A stretch of 11,741 bases of DNA from a virus (lineage: Duplodnaviria; Heunggongvirae; Uroviricota; Caudoviricetes), in IMG/VR virus record IMGVR_UViG_2778261639_000023, positions 1 through 11,741 of that record; one strand, given 5' to 3'. The notes beneath the pieces were generated by a model that had not been told where the DNA came from, made no database searches, and saw only the letters and a list, made by a program, of their open reading frames with translations. How positions within the stretch are numbered: position 1 is the stretch's first letter; every line of letters starts with the position of its first letter. The position numbers and the translations under genes were made by a program. Below, piece by piece: positions 1 through 10,696 of this stretch.

Positions 1-1158
1 ATGCTCACCGTTAAGCAGATTGAAGCAGCAAAGCCGAAAGAAAAACCATACCGCCTTCTCGATGGTAATGGCCTGTACCTTTATGTCCCTGTATCCGGGA
101 AAAAGGTATGGCAGCTTCGCTACAAGATTGACGGTAAGGAGAAAATCCTGACCGTCGGAAAATATCCACTTATGACTTTGCAGGAGGCAAGGGATAAGGC
201 ATGGGCTGCGAGGAAAGACATCTCGGCTGGCATCGATCCGGTAAAGGCGAAAAAGGCTTCGTCTAACAACAATTCCTTTAGTGCGATTTACAAAGAATGG
301 TACGAGCACAAGAAGCAAGTATGGTCAGTAGGGTATGCGACTGAACTTGCCAAAATGTTTGATGACGACATTTTACCCATCATCGGCGGTCTTGAGATTC
401 AGGATATTGAGCCGATGCAACTGCTGGAAGTAATCCGCAGGTTTGAAGATCGCGGTGCAATGGAGCGAGCCAACAAAGCCCGCAGAAGATGCGGCGAAGT
501 TTTCCGTTACGCTATTGTCACCGGAAGGGCTAAATACAACCCGGCACCTGACCTTGCAGACGCCATGAAGGGATACCGCAAGAAGAACTTCCCGTTTCTT
601 CCTGCAGACCAGATCCCGGCATTTAATAAAGCACTGGCAACATTTTCAGGAAGTATCGTATCGCTCATTGCCACCAAGGTTTTACGCTACACAGCCCTAA
701 GAACGAAAGAGCTTCGTTCCATGCAATGGAAGAACGTCGATTTTGAAAACAGGATTATCACCATCGACGCCAGTGTGATGAAAGGACGCAAAATTCATGT
801 GGTTCCTATGTCAGACCAGGTAGTTGAACTTCTCACTACGCTAAGCTCAATCACCAAACCAGTCTCAGAGTTTGTTTTTGCCGGGCGCAACGATAAGAAG
901 AAGCCAATCTGCGAGAACGCGGTATTGCTTGTGATCAAACAAATCGGCTATGAGGGTCTGGAAAGCGGTCACGGATTCAGGCATGAATTCAGCACGATTA
1001 TGAACGAGCACGAATGGCCTGCTGATGCTATTGAAGTGCAACTGGCACATGCCAACGGCGGATCTGTGCGCGGGATTTACAACCATGCTCAGTATCTCGA
1101 TAAGCGCAGAGAAATGATGCAGTGGTGGGCGGATTGGCTTGATGAGAAGGTGGAGTGA
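1..1158 (+). CDS. intS: Phage integrase, tyrosine recombinase (P4/IntS-type with N-terminal arm-binding domain)
   Basis: 385-aa ORF. N-terminus MLTVKQIEAAKP...YRLLDGNGLYLYV is the signature of the DUF4102 arm-binding domain of P4-family integrases. C-terminal catalytic region has HGFRHEF (HxxR) and a late Tyr (RGIYNHAQY). From memory it closely resembles E. coli K-12 CPS-53 IntS, which also sits beside a gtrABC-like operon; not verified by search. Confidence 0.93.
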   Translation: MLTVKQIEAAKPKEKPYRLLDGNGLYLYVPVSGKKVWQLRYKIDGKEKILTVGKYPLMTLQEARDKAWAARKDISAGIDPVKAKKASSNNNSFSAIYKEWYEHKKQVWSVGYATELAKMFDDDILPIIGGLEIQDIEPMQLLEVIRRFEDRGAMERANKARRRCGEVFRYAIVTGRAKYNPAPDLADAMKGYRKKNFPFLPADQIPAFNKALATFSGSIVSLIATKVLRYTALRTKELRSMQWKNVDFENRIITIDASVMKGRKIHVVPMSDQVVELLTTLSSITKPVSEFVFAGRNDKKKPICENAVLLVIKQIGYEGLESGHGFRHEFSTIMNEHEWPADAIEVQLAHANGGSVRGIYNHAQYLDKRREMMQWWADWLDEKVE

Positions 1159-1311
1159 ACCACCTTAATCATTATCGAAGATCGCAAAGCCTTGCAAGCC
1201 AATGCAAATCTTTGTGTGCATCAGTTTTGTCTCATCAACCACAGCAAGTCATCGATCGATTGAGGCTTGGATGATAGACTTCATGCCTTTCTGAACTTAT
1301 TGATTAAATAA
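1159..1311 (+). promoter_or_regulatory. int-gtrA intergenic region; probable promoter/leader of the gtr operon
   Basis: 153-bp non-coding gap directly upstream of gtrA. Contains -35-like TTGCAA (1192-1197) and TTGAGG (1260-1265) and two GATC sites (1180-1183, 1254-1257). No clean sigma70 -35/-10 pair with canonical spacing could be fixed by eye. Confidence 0.35.
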
Positions 1312-1674
1312 ATGTTAAAGCTATTTGCAAAGTACACCTCGATTGGTGTGCTGAACACACTTATACACTGGGTGGTTTTTGGTGTTTGTATCTATGCAGC
1401 GCATACAAACCAGGCTCTTGCAAACTTCGCAGGTTTCGTTGTGGCTGTGAGCTTTAGCTTCTTCGCGAATGCAAAATTCACATTCAAAGCTTCGACTACA
1501 ACGATGCGCTACATGTTATATGTCGGGTTCATGGGAACACTGAGTGCAACTGTTGGATGGGCTGCTGATAGATGTTCACTTCCTCCAATTGTCACTCTCG
1601 TCACCTTCTCCGCCATCAGCCTGGTGTGCGGTTTCGTCTATTCAAAGTTCATTGTCTTTAGGGATGCGAAATGA
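1312..1674 (+). CDS. gtrA: GtrA, bactoprenol-linked glucose translocase (flippase)
   Basis: 120-aa small hydrophobic protein with about four predicted TM segments, the typical GtrA size. Immediately precedes gtrB with a 4-nt ATGA overlap. Confidence 0.9.
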
Positions 1675-2597
1675 AGATATCTCTTGTAGTTCCTGTCTTC
1701 AATGAAGAAGAAGCGATACCAATTTTTTATAAAACGGTACGTGAGTTCGAAGAGTTGAAGCCATATGAAGTGGAAATTGTTTTCATAAATGACGGAAGCA
1801 AAGACGCTACGGAGTCAATTATTAATGCTCTGGCTGTTTCAGACCCGCTGGTTGTTCCGCTGTCATTTACACGAAACTTTGGTAAAGAACCAGCATTGTT
1901 TGCAGGGCTAGACCATGCAACCGGAGATGCTGTAATTCCAATTGATGTTGACCTGCAAGATCCGATTGAGGTTATTCCCCACCTCATCGAAAAGTGGCAG
2001 GCAGGCTCTGATATGGTGCTGGCTAAGCGAACTGATCGCTCAACTGACGGACGACTGAAACGCAAAACGGCAGAGTGGTTTTATAAATTGCACAACAAAA
2101 TAAGCAACCCAAAGATCGAGGAGAATGTCGGCGATTTCCGGTTAATGAGCCGTGAAGTTGTCGAAAACATTAAGCTTATGCCAGAGCGCAACCTTTTTAT
2201 GAAAGGTGTGCTGAGTTGGGTTGGCGGTCGCACAGATGTTGTCGAGTATGCACGCGCAGAACGAGTGGCAGGCAGTACTAAATTTAATGGATGGAAACTG
2301 TGGAACCTGGCACTTGAGGGGATCACAAGCTTCTCTACTTTCCCGTTGCGCATGTGGACTTACATTGGCCTGTTCGTAGCTGGAGTTGCGTTCATGTACG
2401 GAGCGTGGATGATTGTCGATACGCTGGCATTTGGAAACGCAGTGCGTGGTTATCCATCCTTGCTGGTTTCCATCCTTTTCCTGGGTGGCATACAACTGAT
2501 TGGTATTGGCGTCCTAGGTGAATACATTGGAAGGATTTACATTGAAGTTAAAGGCAGACCAAGATATCTAATTAAGGCACGCAAGAATGAAAAATAA
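1671..2597 (+). CDS. gtrB: GtrB, bactoprenol glucosyltransferase (GT2 family)
   Basis: 308 aa. N-terminal GT2 signature ([12 protein letters not shown]...INDGSKD...DVDLQDP) and C-terminal TM helices, typical of GtrB/ArnC-like polyprenyl-phosphate glycosyltransferases. Translationally coupled to both neighbours. Confidence 0.93.
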
Positions 2598-3987
2598 ACT
2601 ACTTCACTGGTCTGTAGAAGGTTTGGCGGCCATTTTTATAGTCATTGCCTTTAGTTATTACTTTGGGTATGCCTTCACCAATCCAGATTCAGTTATTTAC
2701 AAGATAATTGCTGATGGAATAGTCAAGCACGGAGATCTTCCATATACCTTCGCCTTCGATCATAAGCCAGCTTTTATTTTCTATACTTACGCACTATTTT
2801 CACTTATCTATCCATTTAAGGTAGGCTTTTTCGCTGCCTTTTCGCTTCTTTTTTATCTTTTTACGGGATCATTGATATCTAAGCTAGCGACAGGTAGTTT
2901 CAAGCATGCATTGAGCTCTTCTGCTGCGGTGCTGTTTTTCTATTTCCCATTTCTTGATTTTTCTGGCAATACCGAGATTGTGTATAACCTCTACGCAATA
3001 GCATCTCTTTGCCTGCTTTACTGCTATAGCGCAGGATCAATGTTATTGTTTTTTTCTGGGGTGCTGGCAATTTTTGCGGTAAACACTAACTATATGGCAG
3101 GCGTAATGCTTTCACTGCCAACAATATATTTATTAATGCGAGATGGACTGAGTCCAACTGCCAAAAGGGCTGCATGGTATGCATTAGGAGTGATTGCTGG
3201 ACTTGCTATTATCCTTTTACCTATTGCTATGCAGGGATCATTGATTAGTGGTTATTTCGAGCCGCAAATTCATTTCTTAACCTCATATAACGAATCATCG
3301 CCTGGTTTCAAAACAACACTTTATTATTACTTACCTGTTCTACTGAGCATTCTTATCGCTCCGGCTTGTGTATTATTTGGATGGGTAAAGCGGGACGTTC
3401 CTGCAAGAGGGTGGGTTGCATTTGTAATCACCACCATCTCTGCATCAATAACCCTTATCTTAACAGGTAAGGAGGGTATGCATTACGCAGCCATTTACTT
3501 TGCTCCTGTTGCAATGCTAGCCGTGGCTATGGGAAGAAACCCTGTACCCATAGTGCTGGCATGCTCAATACCATTTAACTTTTACTATGCAAAGAACACT
3601 GAATATCTGTTCGAGTTGCATAACCGAGTAGAGCTATCTTATACCAAAGCTAAGGCTGAGGAGTTTGCTGCGATGCATCAGCTTGTCGGTAATGAGAAAG
3701 TGATGTCAATAAGGGCTTCGCATGTCTTATTCTACCTGTCAGACATGATCCCTTTCCATCCTTACATTTGGAACGGCCATTCAAAACTTGTATTTGGTGA
3801 TAAAGAGAATGAGTATTTTATCAAACAGTTGGAATTATCTCCTAAGTTCGTTCTTACTGGCAATGGATACTGTGAGAAGGCTGATCGCATGATTGATGTT
3901 TGCGATATGATAAAACATCATTACACCAAAAAGATGAGCATTAGCTGGGCGTTCGGATACGGTGGTGATTTGTATCAGGCTAAGTAA
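2587..3987 (+). CDS. gtrC: Serotype-specific O-antigen glucosyltransferase (GtrC / Gtr-type, polytopic membrane protein)
   Basis: 466-aa highly hydrophobic multi-TM protein in third position of the gtr operon; start overlaps the gtrB stop by 11 nt. Strongly AT-rich (about 37% GC in hand-sampled lines), as expected for horizontally acquired type-specific gtr genes. Specificity cannot be inferred. Confidence 0.8.
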
Positions 3988-4014: not shown

Positions 4015-6231
4015 CTACACTTCCCACCATCCTTGTGCTCCTGACATCTTGATAAATGTTTTTGACCATCCATTTCCTGTTTTTGTTTCCGTGCCAACAC
4101 TTAGAGGCACTATTCTATTTTCGGATGCTGTACTGCTAAATATAAACGTAACACTAGAGGATAAAGATACTCCGCGTATCACCACTCTGTCTCCGGGCTT
4201 ACCTCCTGTGATTGTGTCAATGCTTTTAGTTGCGGACGATATCCATACATTGCCATGCGAGAATGGAAGTACTGATCCAGTCAATGACTCAAGGGGTTTT
4301 GATGGGCATGGCTCACCATAGATTTGTGGGTCGTTTACACCTGCTGGAATAAGCAGTGTGGAGTTATACTTATTACCTGATCCATAAAGAGTTGGCTCAG
4401 TTGCTCCGCTCCATGTAATAGGGTAATGAGCAACAGATTTCATAGTAAAATCGTTATCACGCAACCTTAAAATGCACGCCTGAGCATTGATATACGTTAA
4501 GGCACCGCTGTTTGCCATCGCGTCAAACCAGTTGCTTCTGAATGTGGCGTCAGCGTTGTTGAAAACAACAACCGGGTCGAGTTGAGATGCTGCTGATGAA
4601 CCCCAGAGATGCGCCTTGAAGGTGCAGTTTTGTACCTTCATTCCTTTGACACTTCCTATGCGCATGAACTGGAAGCAGTTTTTTAGAATAACGCCATCAA
4701 CAATAATTGCCCCATCAGAGAAGAATGAAGGGTTTATTGCTGGTTGGGCATGTAACCCACGAAATGCCGAGTCGATGTTACCGCCTAAAATATGAACCTT
4801 GCCCATATTACCGAAAATTCGGTAAGCAGTACTCAAGTCAACTTTAGTTGACTGCACCTCGCAGTTGATAAACATAAACGTGTGATCGAAGTTTGACCAT
4901 GAAGGTAGCGGGTCGCCAGTGGAGCCGTCTTTGTCGGTGGTAATAATCTGGACGCTGGAGTTAGCGTATACAGTGTCATCGCTGAACTTAATCTTCATGT
5001 TTTCGAAGATAACGTTCTGCGAATAACGCGTAATTCCACGGTCTCCAGAGTAGCAATAACAAGCTGACTTCGTGTTGTAGGCTGTGATGTTGAGAAAATA
5101 CGCGTTGTAGCATGATGCCACTCGCCACCATCCATCACAGGTAGACACGTTTTCTACATTAAACCGCTCGACATGAATATTGTAAGGATGCAAACCATTT
5201 GTCATGGTTGAGTTTGTTGCTGGGTTTTCCGGTGCCAGACCATACTCAAAGTTACATCCAAATTTCCAAGGCCCTCCACTTATCAGGCAGTCATGCAGTC
5301 TAATGCCATCTAATTCCCCCATTCCGCAAACAACAAACCCATTGTTTAAACCTTTCCCTGTAACATTATAAATTCTGTCAATCTCAACGTCACTGGTCAT
5401 TGCACTTCCAAGATATTGACCACCAACCCAAATCATTACAGTTTGAGGCGCTGATGGATTGCTGGCGGTTGCATCTGCCCTTGTTTCTGCAACGTCATAT
5501 ACAAAGTTGGATATGCGGACTTTTTTTGAATTGTAAACGACGAAAGTATGGTTCGCGCGACCACCTGATGTAGGAATAAACCCTTGGACGTTATCCATTA
5601 TCTTCGCGCCATTGAAGTTCAGCGTGATATTACTGACTCCAATGCATTGCACGGTGCCGGTAAGGAGATACGTACTGGATGGATTGCCAATAAACTCCAC
5701 ACCCACGCCGCTGTAGGTGGTGATGGCGGTGTTTAGCGCTGCAGAGCTATCAAGAACACCCGACTTATCTACGCCCGGCAGATCGTCGATAAACATGAAT
5801 ACACGATCAAGGTATTGCGTGAGATTAACGCCGCCCTTGGTACCAATCAGGTTTGTTCCTGGAGGGTCAAATGAAGCTAATTGCTGACTGAACTGATCAG
5901 GATCATACTTCAGCACATTAGGGAAATAGAATTGCCGCGCCCCATACGCATCATAAACAGCCATAGAATGGCCTTGCTCAGTTACGAACTTGGTAATCTG
6001 TCCATTATATACAGGGTAACCAGCAGCGTTAATGATGATTGGTTGCGAAACAGGAACGTGAGAGCCGTCTTCGTTTTCCACATAAACCTGAATCTGGTTT
6101 TCAGGATTTACCGGGTCAGTGTCAATTTTACCGATATAAATTTTGCCATTGGCTACGGCTTTAAAAGAACGAGCCATAGTGAAGAGTTGCGAAGGCATGC
6201 TGACCACAACATTGGCGGTGATATCTGACAT
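4015..6231 (-). CDS. Tailspike protein (P22 gp9-type N-terminal head-binding domain plus divergent beta-helix receptor-binding/enzymatic domain)
   Basis: N-terminus [59 protein letters not shown] closely matches the P22 tailspike N-terminus as recalled ([59 protein letters not shown]). Start moved from the track's 6279 to the ATG at 6229-6231, which has a GGAG Shine-Dalgarno 8 nt upstream and aligns with the P22 start. 738 aa. Confidence 0.9.
5890..6231 (-). other. Tailspike N-terminal capsid/head-binding domain (conserved module, about residues 1-114)
   Basis: Conservation with the P22 head-binding domain continues through ...[10 protein letters not shown]...[10 protein letters not shown], then similarity to P22 is lost. 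Boundary is approximate. Confidence 0.75.
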
Positions 6232-6352
6232 TTCATTGCTCCAGACGAATGATATGATGCAACCATGATGTGATTGCATACCGAAATGGTACTATTGAGT
6301 ATTTATCCAGTAGGTTACGATGCCATTCCACCCAACTGGTGAGGCATCAAGG
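6232..6352. promoter_or_regulatory. Divergent control region between tailspike (-) and mnt (+); candidate promoters and operator-like inverted repeats
   Basis: 121-bp gap. Inverted repeat TGCAA-N11-TTGCA (about 6259-6279) and ATGATG direct repeats one helical turn apart (6254-6259, 6265-6270) on the tailspike side; CACC-N5-GGTG inverted repeat (about 6329-6342) overlapping the mnt RBS (GAGG 6342-6345). -10-like TATCAT on the minus strand about 20 nt upstream of the tailspike ATG; possible TTGAGT/TACGAT pair for mnt. Functional sites are unproven. Confidence 0.45.
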
Positions 6353-6619
6353 ATGTACAGCAAATACGACGAGGCGCAGTTTCACTTGAGACTTCCGCAT
6401 GAACTCCACGCGAAAATTAAACAGCGTGCGAAGATGAATAACAGGTCGCTGAACTCAGAGATAATTGCAGCGATTGAAGAATCGTTGGCTAAACAAAGCT
6501 CTGCATCCGTTTACATTGACGATGCAGAGCGTATGGCAGAACAACAATCTGATATGGTTAAGAAAATGGTTTTTGAAACGCTTAAGACCATGTATAGCAA
6601 TAATAAAAAGGAAACATAG
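6353..6619 (+). CDS. mnt: Mnt-like ribbon-helix-helix repressor (immI region)
   Basis: 88 aa from the ATG at 6353 (GAGG SD 7 nt upstream; the track's extra 11 N-terminal codons are unlikely). Aligns along its length with P22 Mnt as recalled: RHH region ...QFHLRLPHELHAKIKQRAKMNNRSLNSEIIAAIEESL and C-terminal tetramerisation region DAERMAEQQSDMVKKMVFETLK (P22: DAERLADEQSELVKKMVFDTLK). Confidence 0.85.
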   Translation: MYSKYDEAQFHLRLPHELHAKIKQRAKMNNRSLNSEIIAAIEESLAKQSSASVYIDDAERMAEQQSDMVKKMVFETLKTMYSNNKKET

Positions 6620-6689
6620 AAATCTAGTTTCCGGCTAAAATGGCATTGCCTTCATGATATCCTGTGAAAAACTAAGGAGAGTTAACCAT

Positions 6690-7175
6690 ATGAAAAAATC
6701 ACTGTTAATTATCCCGCTTCTGCTGGTTGGATGCGCAAAAGTAAGTGACTATCAAGCAAGTTGCGAACAACGCTATCAAAAGCTTAGCGATATGGCTAAT
6801 TGCCTTGATGCTAGTGTGAAGAACGACTCACGCATGGCATCTGCACCAACACCTAAGCTGTATGTCCTTGCTGCAAAGATGCTCGGGCAAGGTGTTGATG
6901 AAGGTAAAATAAGTGACGCACAGGCAAGACTTGAGCTTCAAAATCTTTATGTTCAATTACAAAGCCAAGAAAAAGCCCAACAAATAGCGCAAAGCCAAGC
7001 ATTCCAGCAGGCTTTATTGAATTATCAGGCTGTAAACACAATGCAAGCGATCGAGCAAAAAGCGAGACAGCCTGTTATAACTCAACCCTATCCAACACGC
7101 GTTGACACTTACACAAACTGCAATTCAGGGTTTGGAAATACAGTCACATGCAACAGTAGCAGTAACATAAGATAA
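6690..7175 (+). CDS. Lipoprotein of unknown function (moron at the sieA-equivalent position); type II signal peptide, Gln-rich coiled-coil-like segment, Cys pairs
   Basis: Start at ATG 6690 with strong SD AAGGAGA (6675-6680); 161 aa. MKKSLLIIPLLLVGC has a lipobox (LVGC; Cys15 at 6732-6734) with Ala at +2, suggesting outer-membrane sorting. Mature part has Cys pairs (SCEQ...NCLD; TNCNSGFGNTVTCN) and a Q/A-rich heptad-like stretch (LQNLYVQLQSQEKAQQIAQSQAFQQALL). No family recognised. Confidence 0.75.
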   Translation: MKKSLLIIPLLLVGCAKVSDYQASCEQRYQKLSDMANCLDASVKNDSRMASAPTPKLYVLAAKMLGQGVDEGKISDAQARLELQNLYVQLQSQEKAQQIAQSQAFQQALLNYQAVNTMQAIEQKARQPVITQPYPTRVDTYTNCNSGFGNTVTCNSSSNIR

Positions 7176-7265
7176 CAATCAGCAAAGGTATCGCCTATGC
7201 AGAGGGGTACGATAAACCTAGCATTCTACATATTTGGTTTTTGCACGTTCCTGGTGTTTGAAAAG

Positions 7266-9263
7266 CTATTCTGACAACGCATCAGACTTAGCCCCCTGAG
7301 TCAGGGCGTTAATGGCCTTTTGTGCCTGCTGCATGGCTTTCTCGAACGCTGTTGATCCGCGTTGGGTGTTTGCCATTCGGAGCATTGCATTTCTGAATGG
7401 CTCGCTCTCATAGGCGCGAGTAAGAAGTCCATAGCTTACCGCTGCGCCAGTTGTCGCAGGGTTCATTGCTGTCCCATATCCGATAATGAACGGGATGGTT
7501 TGCTGCCCTGTTGGTGTTGTTACTGCCGCTTTTGCAGCCTGCTGCGTGGATTGCAGGTAGTTTTTCAATCCTTTCAGATAAGCGGCTTCCTGACCTTTAA
7601 ATGTGATGCCAGTCTGGTTTTGCAGGATGTTAAGCTGCCGAAGGAACTGGTCAGGGGATCCGCCAGATTTCTCCATCGCCTTTCCAATGATGCCATTGCG
7701 CATTTGCGCCCTGCCAACACGACCAACTGAGTTATACAGCGTCTTAATTTCAGATTTGTTCTTGCTGAATAGCATGTTGTTGACAACTTCCGGCGTCAGA
7801 TCGCCTTTCATGAGAACATTCTTCAGCCTGGTATTCTTGAGTTTCGCCGCTTCGTCAGCGTAGACGGCATTGGCCTGCTGATATTTACGGAGAGTATCGT
7901 TGCCAAGATTCTGACCAATGGCACCATTGATATCGTCGGTCATCGCCTTGTAAACGCGCTGAATGGCGGCATCGGAACGGTTTGGTAACACTGGTCGCTC
8001 ACCCTTCACGTCCATTCTGAACTGGCTGCGCAGATCGCTTAATTGCTTCAAGTCCAGATTTACCGGACCATCAGGACCAGCATTGCGAACAAGCTCATCA
8101 CGATATGACTGAAGTTTTGAAATAGTCTCGTTATCAGCGACCTTACCAAGCTTCTGCAGATTAGATATTTCTGTATCAATCTGCTGAATTGCTCGCGCAG
8201 GCTGAATGTTTACTCCAGCCATAGCATTCTGAACCTGCTCCAGTCGATTACCGGCGGCACGACGAATTCCTGATGTTTTCGCTTTAAGGCTGTCAATAAC
8301 AACCGCTGGATCATACTCACCGAATTTATCGGCAAATCTCTGCACCAGCTGGCTTCTCGCTTCCTGTTGCGTTGCTCTCATTCCGCTTGTGCCAGCCAGA
8401 GGGATATTTTCTGCTGTAGTCTGCGCCATTTTTCCGACGCGGGAAGTTGGTTGTAACAGGTCTGTGGTGTGCAGAGGAACTCCTTCACGCTCTGCAAATC
8501 TGATAGCCTGCTGCGCTTCTGGCGCGATAGCACCACGAACGCCACGATAAGCAGCACCTAATCCACGTCCGGCAGCGTTAATAGCACCGCCAGCAAGTAC
8601 ACCAACGCCTAAATCGGTGGCGAGTGCTTCCGCATCATCTTTCGCACTATTTGCAGCAAGTGATCCAACTGCGTTTTCTGCTAGAAGGCGAGTTGCCCCC
8701 TGAGCAATTCGACCAGCAAGTGTTGGTGCCTGTGTTGCCGCTCTCTCAACGCCAGCAGGAGTGAGGTAAGGCAATGCTTCAGCAAACACCCTGCCCTCTG
8801 TAGTTTGTGGAGTCAGCGCGCCTTGCTGAAGGCCAAAGTCCTGCTCTAATCCCTGCGTTGTTACTCGTGGCGATGGTTGATATGTACCATCGCCAATGCC
8901 GAGTTTACCGCCAGCCCAAGCCGCCGCGCTTGTTACAGCATCGGCAACTGATGCAGGTATGTTTGCCACGTTCACGCCAGCCTGCACCAGTCCGCGACCA
9001 GTCTCTTTTACTGCTTCGCCAAGATCAGACATAAATCCACTTTGCTGTGGTTGTTGCTGTGCTACTGGTTGCTGTGTCTCCACTTGCTGCACAGATAGCA
9101 ATGGATAGGCAGCATAGAAAGCTTTCTTAGCCTGCTCTGCATTTTCTCCGGCTTGCGGGGCCACGACTTCATTGAAGTATTGCTCCTGAGCCTGCGCTTT
9201 TTGTTCTGGTGCTAACGCCTGATACTGTGGAGAGGCGATAACATCTTTCCATGCTTTAGCCAT
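7266..9263 (-). CDS. Ejection (DNA-injection, E) protein, P22 gp16-like
   Basis: 665 aa, Ala/Gln/Gly-rich with low-complexity segments. Last gene of the minus-strand cluster, directly before the immI/tailspike region as gene 16 is in P22-like phages. Start ATG (9261-9263) overlaps the upstream gene's stop as TAATG. Assignment rests on size, synteny and composition, not verified alignment. Confidence 0.7.
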   Translation of the reverse strand: MAKAWKDVIASPQYQALAPEQKAQAQEQYFNEVVAPQAGENAEQAKKAFYAAYPLLSVQQVETQQPVAQQQPQQSGFMSDLGEAVKETGRGLVQAGVNVANIPASVADAVTSAAAWAGGKLGIGDGTYQPSPRVTTQGLEQDFGLQQGALTPQTTEGRVFAEALPYLTPAGVERAATQAPTLAGRIAQGATRLLAENAVGSLAANSAKDDAEALATDLGVGVLAGGAINAAGRGLGAAYRGVRGAIAPEAQQAIRFAEREGVPLHTTDLLQPTSRVGKMAQTTAENIPLAGTSGMRATQQEARSQLVQRFADKFGEYDPAVVIDSLKAKTSGIRRAAGNRLEQVQNAMAGVNIQPARAIQQIDTEISNLQKLGKVADNETISKLQSYRDELVRNAGPDGPVNLDLKQLSDLRSQFRMDVKGERPVLPNRSDAAIQRVYKAMTDDINGAIGQNLGNDTLRKYQQANAVYADEAAKLKNTRLKNVLMKGDLTPEVVNNMLFSKNKSEIKTLYNSVGRVGRAQMRNGIIGKAMEKSGGSPDQFLRQLNILQNQTGITFKGQEAAYLKGLKNYLQSTQQAAKAAVTTPTGQQTIPFIIGYGTAMNPATTGAAVSYGLLTRAYESEPFRNAMLRMANTQRGSTAFEKAMQQAQKAINALTQGAKSDALSE

Positions 9264-10696
9264 TAATCACCCCATAGTGAAGAAAAGTTACTGCTGGCTG
9301 CTGGCTGTGATACCTGTGTGGGTTGAGATTGCTGCCGCTGAGATTTACCAACATTAACGTTATATTGTTGGTTGTAATTGTTGGTGTATTCCTGAATCTC
9401 ACGAATCGACTGCTGCATAGCCTCCGGGCTTGAATAGTCAACCTGCGGCATCCCCTGAAAATACATCTTCGCTTCTGCTACGGTGTTAATACCACTGGCA
9501 CCCATGTCCCTTGCTGCCGCCACGCCCTGATTCTGCATTCTTCCCTGAATACGTTGTGCTGAGTTATATAACTGACGCTGATCTTTTCCTGTTAATCGGC
9601 TGCGAACATCAGCACCAATTGCCGGGTTACCTGCACCGCCGGTCATTCCTGTCATGAAATCGAGAGCAGAAGCGTCTGCATTTGCGATCGCGTCGATATC
9701 CTTCTTCATGGCATAGTTTTGTGCTGATGCAGACGATGTTGCAGGCGCTGCGATTGAACTGGCAGGAACGCGAACCATATTCCCCTCGTTGTCGATGCCT
9801 TCGTAGAACGCATTTGCCCCAGCGCCGTGAAGTTTCCCGCCAACCGTTACCGTTCTACCATCTGCCAGTTGCACAACATTCTCCCCGCCAGCATCAGGAC
9901 GGCCTCGAACACGAAGATATGTCTTTTGTTGCTCTGGAGACAGGCTGTTGAAATATTGATATTCTTTAACAGATGCAGGAACAGCACCTCCAGCAGTGCG
10001 CAGGGAGTTTTCACGGCTAACAGCAATGCTTTGCGCCTGTAAACCTTCCCCAGCTTTATTGCTGCGAATCGTCTCTGCCAACTCGCCACGCTCAATATCC
10101 CGACCAGCCATCTTGTCCTGAACATTGAAGTAATCAATCGGACCAAGCGCAGCCATCCCAAGATGATCAACAAATTCTGTGAAACCTTGTGGATTTTGCT
10201 GATACATTTTCGCCACATCCAGAGGGTCTACTCCGGCACGAGTAAGCTCAGATGAGTTGTTCTGCAACCATGACATCATGGCTTCTGGAGATGAAGCTGC
10301 GAGTCTGGCACTTGCTGCCAGTGTACCGACAGTGGAACGCTGGTCTTCATCGACAAATTTCATGCCGTTTCTTACAGCGTCAAACTGCTCAGGATACTGT
10401 GATGCCAGTTTTCGCATTGCATCGCGGTCGCCAGATGTATATGCATCAGCATAAGCCTGCTGAAACTCTTGCTGCCGCTTCTGCTGATCCATCTGCTTAT
10501 ACATATCCATGACAGATGAAATGCCCTGCAAAGCCTGCAAGCCAACGTTATTACGTCCTGAACGCTCCATCTCATTATTCTGTCGAATGTATGCAAGCGT
10601 GGCGTCTGCATCACTTGCTCTTGGAGCGTTGGAGTTCATGCCGCCTAACCCGGCAAGAAGCGCGCCTGAATTACCAGCCTGTTGCCATGTAGCCAA
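9263..10696 (-). CDS. Ejection (E) protein, P22 gp20-like
   Basis: 477 aa (P22 gp20 is of similar size), immediately upstream of and coupled to the gp16-like gene. Apparent TTG start at 10694-10696 with a strong GGAGG SD 6 nt upstream; an in-frame stop precludes a longer N-terminus. Confidence 0.7.

What the first reader, a model, noticed from the sequence alone, without database searches (positions are those of the whole stretch)
6690..7175. Unrecognised outer-membrane-type lipoprotein in the position P22 uses for sieA: candidate superinfection-exclusion or surface-modification moron
Seen in sequence: a well-expressed-looking gene (strong AAGGAGA SD) encodes a 161-aa protein with a canonical lipobox (LLVGC, Ala at +2), two Cys pairs and a Q/A-rich heptad-like segment. 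It lies downstream of mnt on the same strand and convergent with the gp16-like gene. Established knowledge: in P22 this slot (between gene 16 and mnt, transcribed against the late operon) holds sieA, which blocks DNA injection by superinfecting phage; outer-membrane lipoproteins such as T5 Llp and phi80/N15 Cor exclude phage by blocking receptors. Inference: this may be a non-homologous functional analogue acting at the cell envelope, complementing gtrABC receptor modification in the same element. I do not recognise its family, so it may be undescribed.
Basis: partly seen in the sequence, partly recalled or inferred. Interest (0 to 1): 0.65.

Follow-up and report, generated by a model that had tools for sequence, protein, structure and literature searches.

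The report
Uncharacterised prophage lipoprotein in sieA's slot
This is a real, conserved gene for a small exported lipoprotein that P22-like prophages carry in place of the exclusion gene sieA, behind the same short expression leader; its function has never been tested, so it is a good candidate for a new envelope-level phage-exclusion factor.

Summary
Window 6690-7175(+) encodes a 161-aa protein with a strong SD, a canonical lipobox (LLVGC15, Ala at +2), two conserved Cys pairs and a Q/A-rich 50-residue helix.

It belongs to PHROG 6067 (unknown function). It has no Pfam, NCBIfam, PADLOC or PDB match and no fold match. dN/dS is 0.08, so it is a functional gene.

In every P22-like prophage examined, including relatives at 24-31% identity, it lies between the gene-16-type ejection-protein gene and the tailspike gene, antisense to the late operon.

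New here: it shares with P22 sieA a ~32-nt leader (tcaTGnTATCCTg…AAAACTAAGGAG) that lies inside the published 85-bp PsieA fragment. At least nine cargo families follow this leader, most with a signal peptide or TM segments. The slot therefore behaves as an exchangeable cassette.

Published RNA-seq for the Gally ortholog shows transcription in the lysogen, 4.5-fold above prophage background while gene 16 is silent, and about 16-fold more inside macrophages.

The gene is in 186 of 5,426 complete E. coli genomes and 25 of 86 surveyed slots.

Superinfection exclusion is the most likely role (about 0.4) but is untested. A host-fitness role is the main rival.

The parts
6690..7175 (+). CDS of the 161-aa prolipoprotein (146-aa mature form), a member of PHROG 6067
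   Evidence: dN/dS 0.077
6690..6734 (+). Signal peptide and lipobox (MKKSLLIIPLLLVG|C15); +2 Ala, +3 Lys
   Evidence: The pattern matches. The +2 residue is never Asp in the 109 lipobox-bearing relatives. OM sorting is inferred from the E. coli Lol-avoidance rule.
6651..6689 (+). Conserved cassette leader shared with P22 sieA: ttcaTGaTATCCTgtgaAAAACTAAGGAGagttaaccat. It holds an extended -10-like element (TG 6655-6656, TATCCT 6658-6663) and the SD AAGGAGA (6674-6680).
   Evidence: The 22-nt core occurs once in the window against 0 in 200 shuffles, and once in each of 33 loci including P22. Homology breaks just 5' of 'tcat' and just 3' of GGAG. Putative PsieA lies within 85 bp upstream of sieA (PMC10883804). 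Promoter activity of this element is inferred.
6735..6989 (+). N-terminal helical domain (aa 16-100) with the invariant C25/C38 pair and the motif YQxxCE…CL…KLYxLxAxxL…DxxARxELQxLY
   Evidence: pLDDT 93-98 in model m9698116c6746; conservation; dN/dS 0.051
6915..7064 (+). Single 50-residue helix (aa 76-125). Its Q/A-rich distal half projects from the domain.
   Evidence: The heptad pattern is weak.
7104..7166 (+). C-terminal beta-hairpin (aa 139-159) carrying the C144/C154 pair (T-x-C-x3-G-x4-C motif). Close relatives have two alternative C-terminal modules.
   Evidence: pLDDT 51-79, lower confidence
6320..6619 (+). mnt-type Arc/Mnt repressor gene directly upstream; probable co-transcription or read-through into the lipoprotein gene
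   Evidence: Pfam Arc 1e-14 and Repressor_Mnt 4e-12. No terminator-like site was found in 6150-7400.
7266..9263 (-). Convergent ejection-protein gene at the gene-16 position (665 aa); end of the late operon
   Evidence: There is no PF26808 hit. Orthologues are annotated as DNA transfer protein.
4015..6231 (-). Tailspike gene (head-binding domain at the N terminus), the other border of the slot
   Evidence: PF09008 1.6e-65; alignment A3
1312..3987 (+). gtrA, gtrB and a gtrC-like gene: the O-antigen modification module of the same element
   Evidence: PF04138 and PF00535 hits. The 466-aa third gene has no Pfam hit.

Best explanation
[quoted passage not shown] The mature protein has a compact disulfide-braced helical domain, a ~75 Å helix and a small disulfide-clamped hairpin.

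It is one of several interchangeable cargo genes in the cassette slot between gene 16 and the tailspike gene of P22-like prophages. These cargoes are driven by the short PsieA-type leader that also drives sieA. The gene is transcribed in the lysogen while the late genes are silent.

Most likely function (inferred): lysogen protection against superinfecting phage at the envelope stage. I propose that the strongly conserved N-domain binds a conserved periplasmic or outer-membrane host component, or the trans-periplasmic conduit built by incoming ejection proteins. DNA delivery would then fail after adsorption. This follows the logic of Llp, Cor or Sim rather than that of SieA, and would complement GtrABC.

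Shown: the gene is real and constrained, the export and lipobox signals are present, the slot and leader are shared with sieA, and the gene is expressed in a lysogen. Inferred: OM localisation, promoter activity of the leader, and the exclusion function and its target.
For: Gene and topology. The ORF, SD, lipobox and conserved Cys pairs are present. dN/dS is 0.077. The model is confident (pLDDT 85.5) with no TM segment beyond the signal peptide.

Fixed position. The gene lies between gene 16 and the tailspike in E. coli, Salmonella, Morganella, Yersinia, Providencia, Atlantibacter, Citrobacter and Serratia prophages, even at 24-31% identity. That is sieA's position in P22.

Shared leader. sieA and at least eight other cargo families carry the same leader, and most of them have a signal peptide or TM segments. 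There is exactly one leader per locus. The published PsieA fragment covers this region and is sufficient for full exclusion (PMC10883804).

No co-occurrence. In the tailspike-anchored survey, 25 of 86 slots hold the lipoprotein, 6 hold SieA and none holds both.

Expression. The Gally ortholog LF82_138 gives 70 normalised counts against a prophage median of 15.6 in LB, while gene 16 gives 13.7. Its log2 value rises to 10.3 inside macrophages (PMC9928086 S1 Table).

Host range. Hosts include plant, insect, fish and gut Enterobacterales, which favours a phage-centred role.

Lambdoid relative. A distant relative sits antisense beside tail gene J in a lambdoid prophage, the classic place for cor- and lom-type morons.
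Against: No member has been tested for any phenotype.

There is no sequence or fold similarity to any known exclusion protein.

Strong purifying selection shows no short-term arms-race signature.

The ~16-fold rise in macrophages, and a smaller rise in the B1/B6 conditions, fits a host-adaptation moron equally well.

The Gally authors did not score the gene as a moron, because 4.5-fold is below their 5-fold cut-off.

One branch of the family lies in chromosomal or non-phage mobile contexts and has no relatives in viral contigs.

The absence of lipoprotein/SieA co-occurrence is not significant on its own (hypergeometric P about 0.12, computed from the counts).

Only SieA among the slot's cargoes has a known function, so sharing a leader shows shared expression, not shared function.
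Confidence: 0.4

Rival explanations
1. Host-fitness or virulence moron. The periplasmic lipoprotein would change envelope properties such as stress, serum, antimicrobial-peptide or intracellular survival to benefit the lysogen, as Bor/Iss or TraT do, with no direct effect on phages.
For: The Gally ortholog rises from log2 ~6.1 in LB to ~10.3 inside macrophages at 1 h and ~8.6 at 6 h. The gene is carried by AIEC LF82, by O104:H4 and by many human isolates. The ORF stays intact in defective prophage remnants, including this window.
Against: The family is equally at home in prophages of plant pathogens, insect symbionts, fish pathogens and environmental Enterobacterales. Its position is tied to the phage DNA-delivery and host-recognition modules and to the sieA leader. 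In the remnants, genes 16 and 20 are intact too, so retention may only reflect a recent deletion.
Confidence: 0.25
2. Periplasmic immunity or inhibitor protein. It would neutralise an envelope-acting enzyme or toxin, for example a muralytic domain of an incoming ejection protein, a bacteriocin or a T6SS amidase, in the way small disulfide-bonded helical immunity proteins do.
For: It is a small, helical, disulfide-braced periplasmic protein. Anchored and soluble periplasmic variants occupy the same slot. The neighbouring gene-16-position protein is annotated as lytic-transglycosylase-domain-containing in phage VSe13.
Against: There is no fold match to known immunity or lysozyme-inhibitor families. 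The gene occurs next to several unrelated gene-16 types, with and without PF26808. No toxin partner gene is adjacent.
Confidence: 0.12
3. Accessory factor for the phage's own lytic cycle. It might, for example, prevent progeny from ejecting DNA into debris or vesicles after lysis (the second role of T5 Llp), or assist ejection-protein or lysis functions.
For: The gene is adjacent to the ejection-protein genes. T5 Llp is a precedent for a lipoprotein with a dual role (established knowledge; bioRxiv 10.64898/2026.03.26.714494 is listed).
Against: The gene is antisense to the late operon and is transcribed in the uninduced lysogen. It is absent from about 70% of surveyed P22-like slots and from all but 5 of 50,697 sequenced phage records, so it is dispensable for the lytic cycle.
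Confidence: 0.08
4. Non-functional hitch-hiking ORF or mis-called gene.
For: There is no annotated function and no Pfam family.
Against: dN/dS is 0.077. There are 94 clusters at 90% identity and about 250 at 50%. The Cys residues and motifs are invariant. The fold prediction is confident. RNA-seq detects expression.
Confidence: 0.02

Closest known systems
P22 SieA (PHROG 7745), inner-membrane superinfection-exclusion protein
   Same: Same slot (between gene 16 and the mnt/tailspike side), same strand logic, same ~32-nt leader with SD, similar size (161 vs 164 aa), prophage-expressed, never found together in one locus.
   Different: There is no sequence similarity (no BLASTP alignment at E<=100). 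SieA is a 3-TM inner-membrane protein with no signal peptide (PMC10883804). This protein has a cleavable lipoprotein signal and a soluble helical body. SieA's function is proven; this one's is not.
T5 Llp and phi80/N15/HK022 Cor: outer-membrane lipoproteins that exclude phage by acting on FhuA
   Same: Small phage-encoded lipoproteins predicted to sit in the inner leaflet of the OM; Cys-containing; carried as accessory genes near host-recognition or DNA-delivery genes. A distant relative of this family sits beside tail gene J in a lambdoid prophage.
   Different: Not homologous. The only PHROG Cor signal is E=0.035 and covers just the signal peptide, residues 1-31. This protein is about twice as large and all-helical. 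The carrier phages use O-antigen, not FhuA. The target is unknown.
P1 Sim: processed periplasmic protein that blocks P1 DNA entry after adsorption (established knowledge, not tested here)
   Same: It is a conceptual precedent for a Sec-exported periplasmic prophage protein that blocks the step between adsorption and cytoplasmic DNA entry. Some relatives of this family are soluble periplasmic proteins.
   Different: No similarity was detected in the PHROG scan. The comparison rests on function only.
Lambda Bor / Iss and F TraT: mobile-element OM lipoproteins that confer serum resistance or surface exclusion
   Same: Prophage- or plasmid-borne lipoprotein morons expressed in the carrier cell. 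The macrophage-induced expression of the Gally ortholog fits this kind of role.
   Different: There is no Pfam hit to Lambda_Bor or TraT. The genomic position and fold differ.
PHROG 6067 / NCBI WP_000749291.1 'hypothetical protein'
   Same: Full-length match, E=5.7e-110, residues 1-161 to profile positions 1-161 of 161. The same protein is annotated in E. coli genomes.
   Different: These are catalogue entries only, with no function, structure or publication attached.

Membership tests
PHROG 6067 (uncharacterised phage protein family) | Full-length profile match | tested here: met
   E=5.7e-110, residues 1-161 to profile positions 1-161 of 161
Bacterial lipoproteins (SPase II substrates) | Positively charged n-region, hydrophobic h-region and a lipobox [LVI][ASTVI][GAS]C within the first ~35 residues | tested here: met
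   MKK-SLLIIPLL-LVGC15 matches a PS51257-type pattern. C15 is conserved in at least 90% of 130 relatives.
Bacterial lipoproteins (SPase II substrates) | Actual lipid modification, globomycin-sensitive processing and Lol-dependent OM sorting | not testable with these tools
   Only the sorting rule could be applied. The +2 residue is Ala here and never Asp in 109 relatives.
SieA superinfection-exclusion family | Sequence homology to SieA types A, B or C, including the motif FxRYPxEAxxFNK | tested here: not met
   No BLASTP alignment at E<=100. The PHROG scan gave no hit to PHROG 7745, and no slot ORF other than the phmmer-identified SieA proteins carries the motif.
SieA superinfection-exclusion family | Integral inner-membrane protein with 3-4 TM helices and no signal peptide | tested here: not met
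   The only hydrophobic segment is the signal peptide. The model is a soluble helical domain.
SieA superinfection-exclusion family | Located between gene 16 and gene 9 of a P22-like prophage, antisense to the late genes, behind the PsieA leader | tested here: met
SieA superinfection-exclusion family | Blocks DNA injection by P22-like phages | not testable with these tools
   Needs plating, K+ efflux and DNA-entry assays.
Cor / Llp receptor-blocking lipoproteins | Homology to the Cor (PHROG 1119) or Llp families | tested here: not met
   The Cor hit is E=0.035 and limited to residues 1-31, the signal peptide. There is no Llp family among the hits.
Cor / Llp receptor-blocking lipoproteins | Binds and inactivates an OM receptor (FhuA) | not testable with these tools
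   No binding data. The carrier phages are O-antigen-specific tailspike phages.
Rz1-type o-spanin | Short Pro-rich OM lipoprotein encoded in the lysis cassette, embedded in or next to Rz | tested here: not met
   There is no spanin PHROG or Pfam hit. The gene lies in the immI/sieA slot, not the lysis cassette. The mature protein is 146 aa, helical and Q/A-rich.
Lambda Bor / Iss | Pfam Lambda_Bor domain | tested here: not met
   No Pfam hit other than DUF2802 at E=0.43
Known anti-phage defence systems (PADLOC-DB 2.0) | Match to any defence-protein model | tested here: not met
   0 families at E<=1

The most novel reading that the evidence does not exclude
The protein would be the founding, testable member of a large unrecognised superfamily (about 250 clusters at 50% identity) of Cys-clamped helical periplasmic proteins carried by temperate phages. 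It would act as a periplasm-side block to phage genome delivery, the first known inhibitor acting between the outer membrane and SieA's inner-membrane step. The PsieA-leader slot of P22-like prophages would then be a cassette-exchange hotspot holding about ten unexplored envelope-acting exclusion factors.
Probability: 0.3. Interest if true: 0.75.

Novelty: new variant of a known kind. Interest (0 to 1): 0.55.

Why it matters
Only 22 of 66 sequenced P22-like phages carry sieA (PMC10883804), and what the others hold at that locus has not been described.

This work shows that the commonest identifiable occupant in E. coli-type prophages is this lipoprotein. It was found in 25 of 86 surveyed slots and in 3.4% of complete E. 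coli genomes. It shares sieA's leader with at least eight other small protein families, mostly envelope proteins, of which only SieA has a known function.

That turns a 'hypothetical protein' into a specific hypothesis that is cheap to test, using the same galK single-copy assay already established for sieA. It also defines a sequence tag, TATCCTGNNNAAAACTAAGGAG, for mining further cargoes.

If the protein excludes phage from the periplasm, it would fill the gap between receptor modification (GtrABC) and the inner-membrane block (SieA). That bears on phage-therapy host range in E. coli, Salmonella, Serratia and Proteeae.

If instead it aids intracellular survival, it would be a moron that the LF82 study missed only because it fell just under the 5-fold threshold.

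Tried and rejected
Family and structure searches
- Pfam, NCBIfam, PADLOC and PDB sequence searches gave nothing meaningful. The weak GspK (E=9e-4, 18.8 bits against a cut-off of 130) and DUF2802 hits were rejected as low-complexity Q/A-helix matches. One Cronobacter record's 'GspK' name is probably the same artefact.
- The afdb50 library was not available.

Searches for the wider family
- The profile search of viral contigs with the whole distant-family alignment failed because no conserved block was found. A narrower alignment found no viral relatives of the P0100-like branch.
- The metagenome scan returned 11 loci, mostly short. Their contexts are variable and look like mobile elements, so they gave no functional hint.

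Regulatory signals
- The generic sigma-70 scan found no more sites than the shuffles did, and no intrinsic terminator in 6150-7400. The extended -10-like element was recognised only by comparing loci.

Other
- The SieA motif search did not identify the divergent SieA types B and C among the 'other' slot occupants, so SieA may be undercounted.
- Literature searches on accessions, locus tags and keywords found no paper on this protein.
- A coiled-coil (heptad) reading of the long helix was considered but is only weakly supported.

Full report
1. THE OBSERVATION

Window 6690-7175(+) is an intact ORF. The ORF listing extends it to an ATG at 6654 (173 aa). All aligned homologues begin at the MKK encoded from 6690, which is preceded by AAGGAGA at 6674-6680.

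The N terminus MKKSLLIIPLLLVG|C15-A-K matches the lipoprotein signal pattern. Cys residues are at 15, 25, 38, 144 and 154. C25 and C38 are invariant across 130 family sequences, and C15, C144 and C154 are conserved in at least 90%.

Residues 88-125 hold 12 Q and 7 A of 38 and lie inside one predicted helix, 76-125. The heptad pattern is weak.

Pairwise dN/dS over 27 unique orthologous CDSs is 0.077 and no more than 0.13 in any region, so this is a constrained protein-coding gene.

2. SURROUNDINGS

The window reads:
- int (1-1158)
- gtrA, gtrB and a gtrC-like gene (1312-3987)
- tailspike with a head-binding domain (4015-6231, minus strand)
- an Arc/Mnt repressor gene (6320-6619)
- the lipoprotein gene
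- a 665-aa protein at the gene-16 position (7266-9263, minus strand)
- gp20 (Inj_translocase, 9263-10696, minus strand)
- a truncated gene 7

In P22 the order is 9(-), ant(-), arc(-), mnt(+), orf59(+), sieA(+), 16(-). The gene therefore occupies exactly sieA's relative position and orientation.

3. WHO ELSE HAS IT

- It matches PHROG 6067 (unknown function) end to end, E=6e-110.
- It has no Pfam, NCBIfam, PADLOC or PDB-sequence match.
- The 5.8-billion-protein search finds 94 clusters. Every source name that gives an organism is an Enterobacterales genus (Escherichia, Citrobacter, Serratia, Cronobacter, Klebsiella aerogenes, Pectobacterium, Yersinia, Morganella, Providencia, Tatumella, Symbiopectobacterium). 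Almost all are named hypothetical or lipoprotein.
- 186 of 5,426 complete E. coli genomes carry it, always on the chromosome.
- Only 5 of 50,697 phage records carry it: Gally, vB_EcoP-720R6, VSe13, MS2 LVA and Proteus Brookers.
- An exhaustive profile search finds 251 representatives at 50% clustering with E<=1e-3. Most are 125-140 aa and share the architecture: signal and lipobox, YQxxCE…CL, KLYxLxAxxL…DARxELQxLY, then T-x-C…G…C.

4. POSITION IS CONSERVED FAR BEYOND SEQUENCE

It also holds for members only 24-31% identical to the P0100-like reference: Atlantibacter (128 aa), Citrobacter (137 aa) and Serratia plymuthica (156 aa).

Other members lie elsewhere:
- One is antisense beside tail gene J in a lambdoid siphophage prophage.
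- One is in a small integrase plus AAA_25 element.
- One is in an apparently ordinary chromosomal neighbourhood.
- That last branch has no relatives in viral contigs, and its metagenomic contexts are variable and look like mobile elements.

5. THE SLOT IS A CASSETTE WITH A COMMON LEADER (NEW)

I anchored a survey on the conserved tailspike head-binding domain rather than on the lipoprotein. This fetched 100 P22-like loci. Of 86 slots that could be delimited, 25 hold the lipoprotein, 6 hold SieA type A, none holds both, and 55 hold neither. Of those 55, 23 hold mnt as the only recognised gene.

The cargo genes share a ~32-nt sequence immediately 5' of the start codon:
- P22 sieA: ttcaTGgTATCCTgcacAAAACTAAGGAGgttggtGTG
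- this window: ttcaTGaTATCCTgtgaAAAACTAAGGAGagttaaccatATG (6651-6692)

Similarity between loci stops just upstream of 'tcat' and just after GGAG.

The 22-nt core TATCCTGNNNAAAACTAAGGAG occurs once in the window, against none in 200 shuffles. It occurs exactly once in each of 33 loci, P22 included.

The leader is followed by the lipoprotein in 19 loci and by SieA in 8. In the remaining loci it is followed by one of at least seven further unrelated families:
- a 106-aa protein with one TM
- a 75-aa protein with two TM
- a 129-aa secreted protein with Cys at both ends
- 109-aa coiled-coil proteins with one TM
- a 99-aa secreted protein
- a 62-aa membrane protein
- a 140-aa cytoplasmic protein

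Of the five of these scanned against PHROGs, four fall in unknown-function families (10450, 7294, 2651, 8100) and the 140-aa protein has no hit. Only SieA (PHROG 7745) is characterised.

The SieA paper places the putative PsieA promoter within 85 bp upstream of sieA. That fragment plus sieA gave full exclusion from a single chromosomal copy (PMC10883804). The conserved element contains TGnTATCCT. I read this as an extended -10, which fits the lack of any conserved -35; this is inference.

More distant lipoprotein genes that stand alone next to the tailspike have their own sigma-70-like promoters instead.

6. EXPRESSION

The Gally prophage of E. coli LF82 carries an ortholog (LF82_138/GALLYPH_13) that is 96.9% identical in protein. 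Values below are from S1 Table of PMC9928086.
- In LB the gene gives 78 and 62 normalised counts, mean 70.
- The prophage median is 15.6 and the convergent gene 16 gives 13.7.
- That is 4.5-fold above background, just under the authors' 5-fold moron cut-off of 78.1. This is why they reported Gally as having no morons.
- log2(fpkm+5) values are 6.3/6.0 (BLB, the LB culture), 7.9/8.2 (B1), 8.0/8.2 (B6), 10.3/10.3 (MB1) and 8.7/8.5 (MB6).
- I read B1/B6 as bacteria without macrophages and MB1/MB6 as bacteria inside macrophages at 1 h and 6 h.
- The text states that the five rightmost prophage genes were induced 6-40-fold in macrophages.

The gene is therefore transcribed in the lysogen independently of the late operon, and its level responds to conditions.

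7. STRUCTURE

With a 130-sequence alignment, AlphaFold2 gives mean pLDDT 85.5 and pTM 0.59. The elements are:
- helices 18-28, 32-45, 47-51 and 53-70
- a continuous helix 76-125, whose first half packs on the domain (pLDDT 93-98)
- a less confident hairpin, 139-146 and 152-159

C25 and C38 lie on neighbouring helices, and C144 and C154 on the two hairpin strands, so two disulfides are plausible (inference).

The +2 residue is never Asp in the 109 relatives with a strict lipobox, so OM sorting is predicted. At least 9 relatives have a signal-peptidase-I signal and no anchor Cys, including those in the same slot in Atlantibacter, Citrobacter and S. plymuthica. The constant feature is therefore the periplasm, not the anchor.

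8. WHAT IT MOST LIKELY DOES

Shown:
- a constrained, exported, probably OM-anchored periplasmic protein
- an alternative cargo of the sieA cassette
- transcribed in the lysogen

Inferred: lysogen protection at the envelope stage of infection. Four points favour this.
- The only characterised cargo of the slot is an exclusion protein.
- Most cargoes are envelope proteins.
- The family tracks the DNA-delivery and host-recognition modules in both podovirus-type and siphovirus-type prophages.
- Its hosts span very different ecologies.

The N-domain is highly conserved (dN/dS 0.05), whereas genes 16 and 20 are among the most variable virion genes (PMC10883804). Relatives also occur in a lambdoid phage. 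I therefore lean towards a conserved host envelope target, as for Llp and Cor, rather than direct recognition of P22-type ejection proteins. Both remain open.

I put exclusion at about 0.4. The rivals are a host-fitness or virulence moron at 0.25, favoured by the macrophage induction; a periplasmic immunity or inhibitor protein at about 0.12; a lytic-cycle accessory at about 0.08; and a non-functional ORF at about 0.02.

9. COMPARISON AND NOVELTY

The gene works like, and sits like, a sieA alternative, but it fails every homology and topology test for SieA. It is not a member of the Cor, Llp, Rz1 or Bor families. It is a member of PHROG 6067, which is a catalogue entry only.

No paper on it was found. 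I file it as a new variant of a known kind, namely prophage-encoded envelope morons.

The cassette leader and the list of co-cargoes appear to be new observations, as far as the searchable literature shows.

10. LIMITS

- Nothing here tests function.
- The viral-contig half of the survey is biased towards E. coli-type prophages whose head-binding domains are at least 94% identical to the window's.
- Divergent SieA types B and C could not be recognised and may hide in the 'other' class.
- The lack of lipoprotein/SieA co-occurrence is not statistically significant on its own (P about 0.12 from the counts).
- The promoter assignment is inferred.

Noticed in passing
[not shown]
   Followed up: partly
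window 1-1311: int is adjacent to gtrA, only ~150 bp apart. This fits the KplE1/CPS-53, Sf6 and HK620 type of recombination module, where attP lies between int and xis, so that int and xis (torI) end up at opposite prophage ends. This reading rests on the intS…torI layout and on prior knowledge.
   Followed up: partly
window 2587-3987: The third gtr gene (466 aa, multi-pass membrane protein) has no Pfam match at E<=0.001. It may be a serotype-specific glucosyltransferase of an undescribed type.
   Followed up: no
window 7266-9263: The protein at the gene-16 position (665 aa) does not match PF26808 (Phage_P22_gp16), although several other lipoprotein-carrying prophages have a PF26808-type gp16. 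Its VSe13 orthologue is annotated 'lytic transglycosylase domain-containing protein'.
   Followed up: no
loci L038, L039, L054, L071, L074, L083, L093, L110 (slot between gene 16 and the tailspike): At least seven other small ORF families follow the same sieA-type leader. Most have a signal peptide or TM segments. Four belong to unknown-function PHROGs (10450, 7294, 2651, 8100). They are untested candidates for envelope-acting morons.
   Followed up: partly
L118 2964-3383 (Gally GALLYPH_14; also in vB_EcoP-720R6): A 139-aa hypothetical protein (PHROG 6823) is divergently transcribed from the lipoprotein gene. It is expressed even more strongly than the lipoprotein in the B1/B6 samples and in macrophages, with log2 values of about 9.4-11 (PMC9928086 S1 Table).
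   Followed up: no
L119 5389-5808: A 139-aa distant family member with a signal-peptidase-I type signal and no lipobox lies antisense between the tail-tip gene J region and a 717-aa protein in a lambda-like prophage. This is the neighbourhood where lom and cor morons occur.
   Followed up: partly
window 6320-6619: The mnt ORF is 99 aa against 83 aa in P22. The Arc domain starts at residue 18, so the true start may be the internal Met at residue 12 (MYSKYDEAQF…).
   Followed up: no
L016 747-4163: A CBASS-type operon (SMODS/DncV-like, E2-CBASS, Saf_2TM-SAVED) lies just outside the integrase end of the Serratia plymuthica P22-like prophage that carries a distant family member.
   Followed up: no
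[not shown]
   Followed up: no
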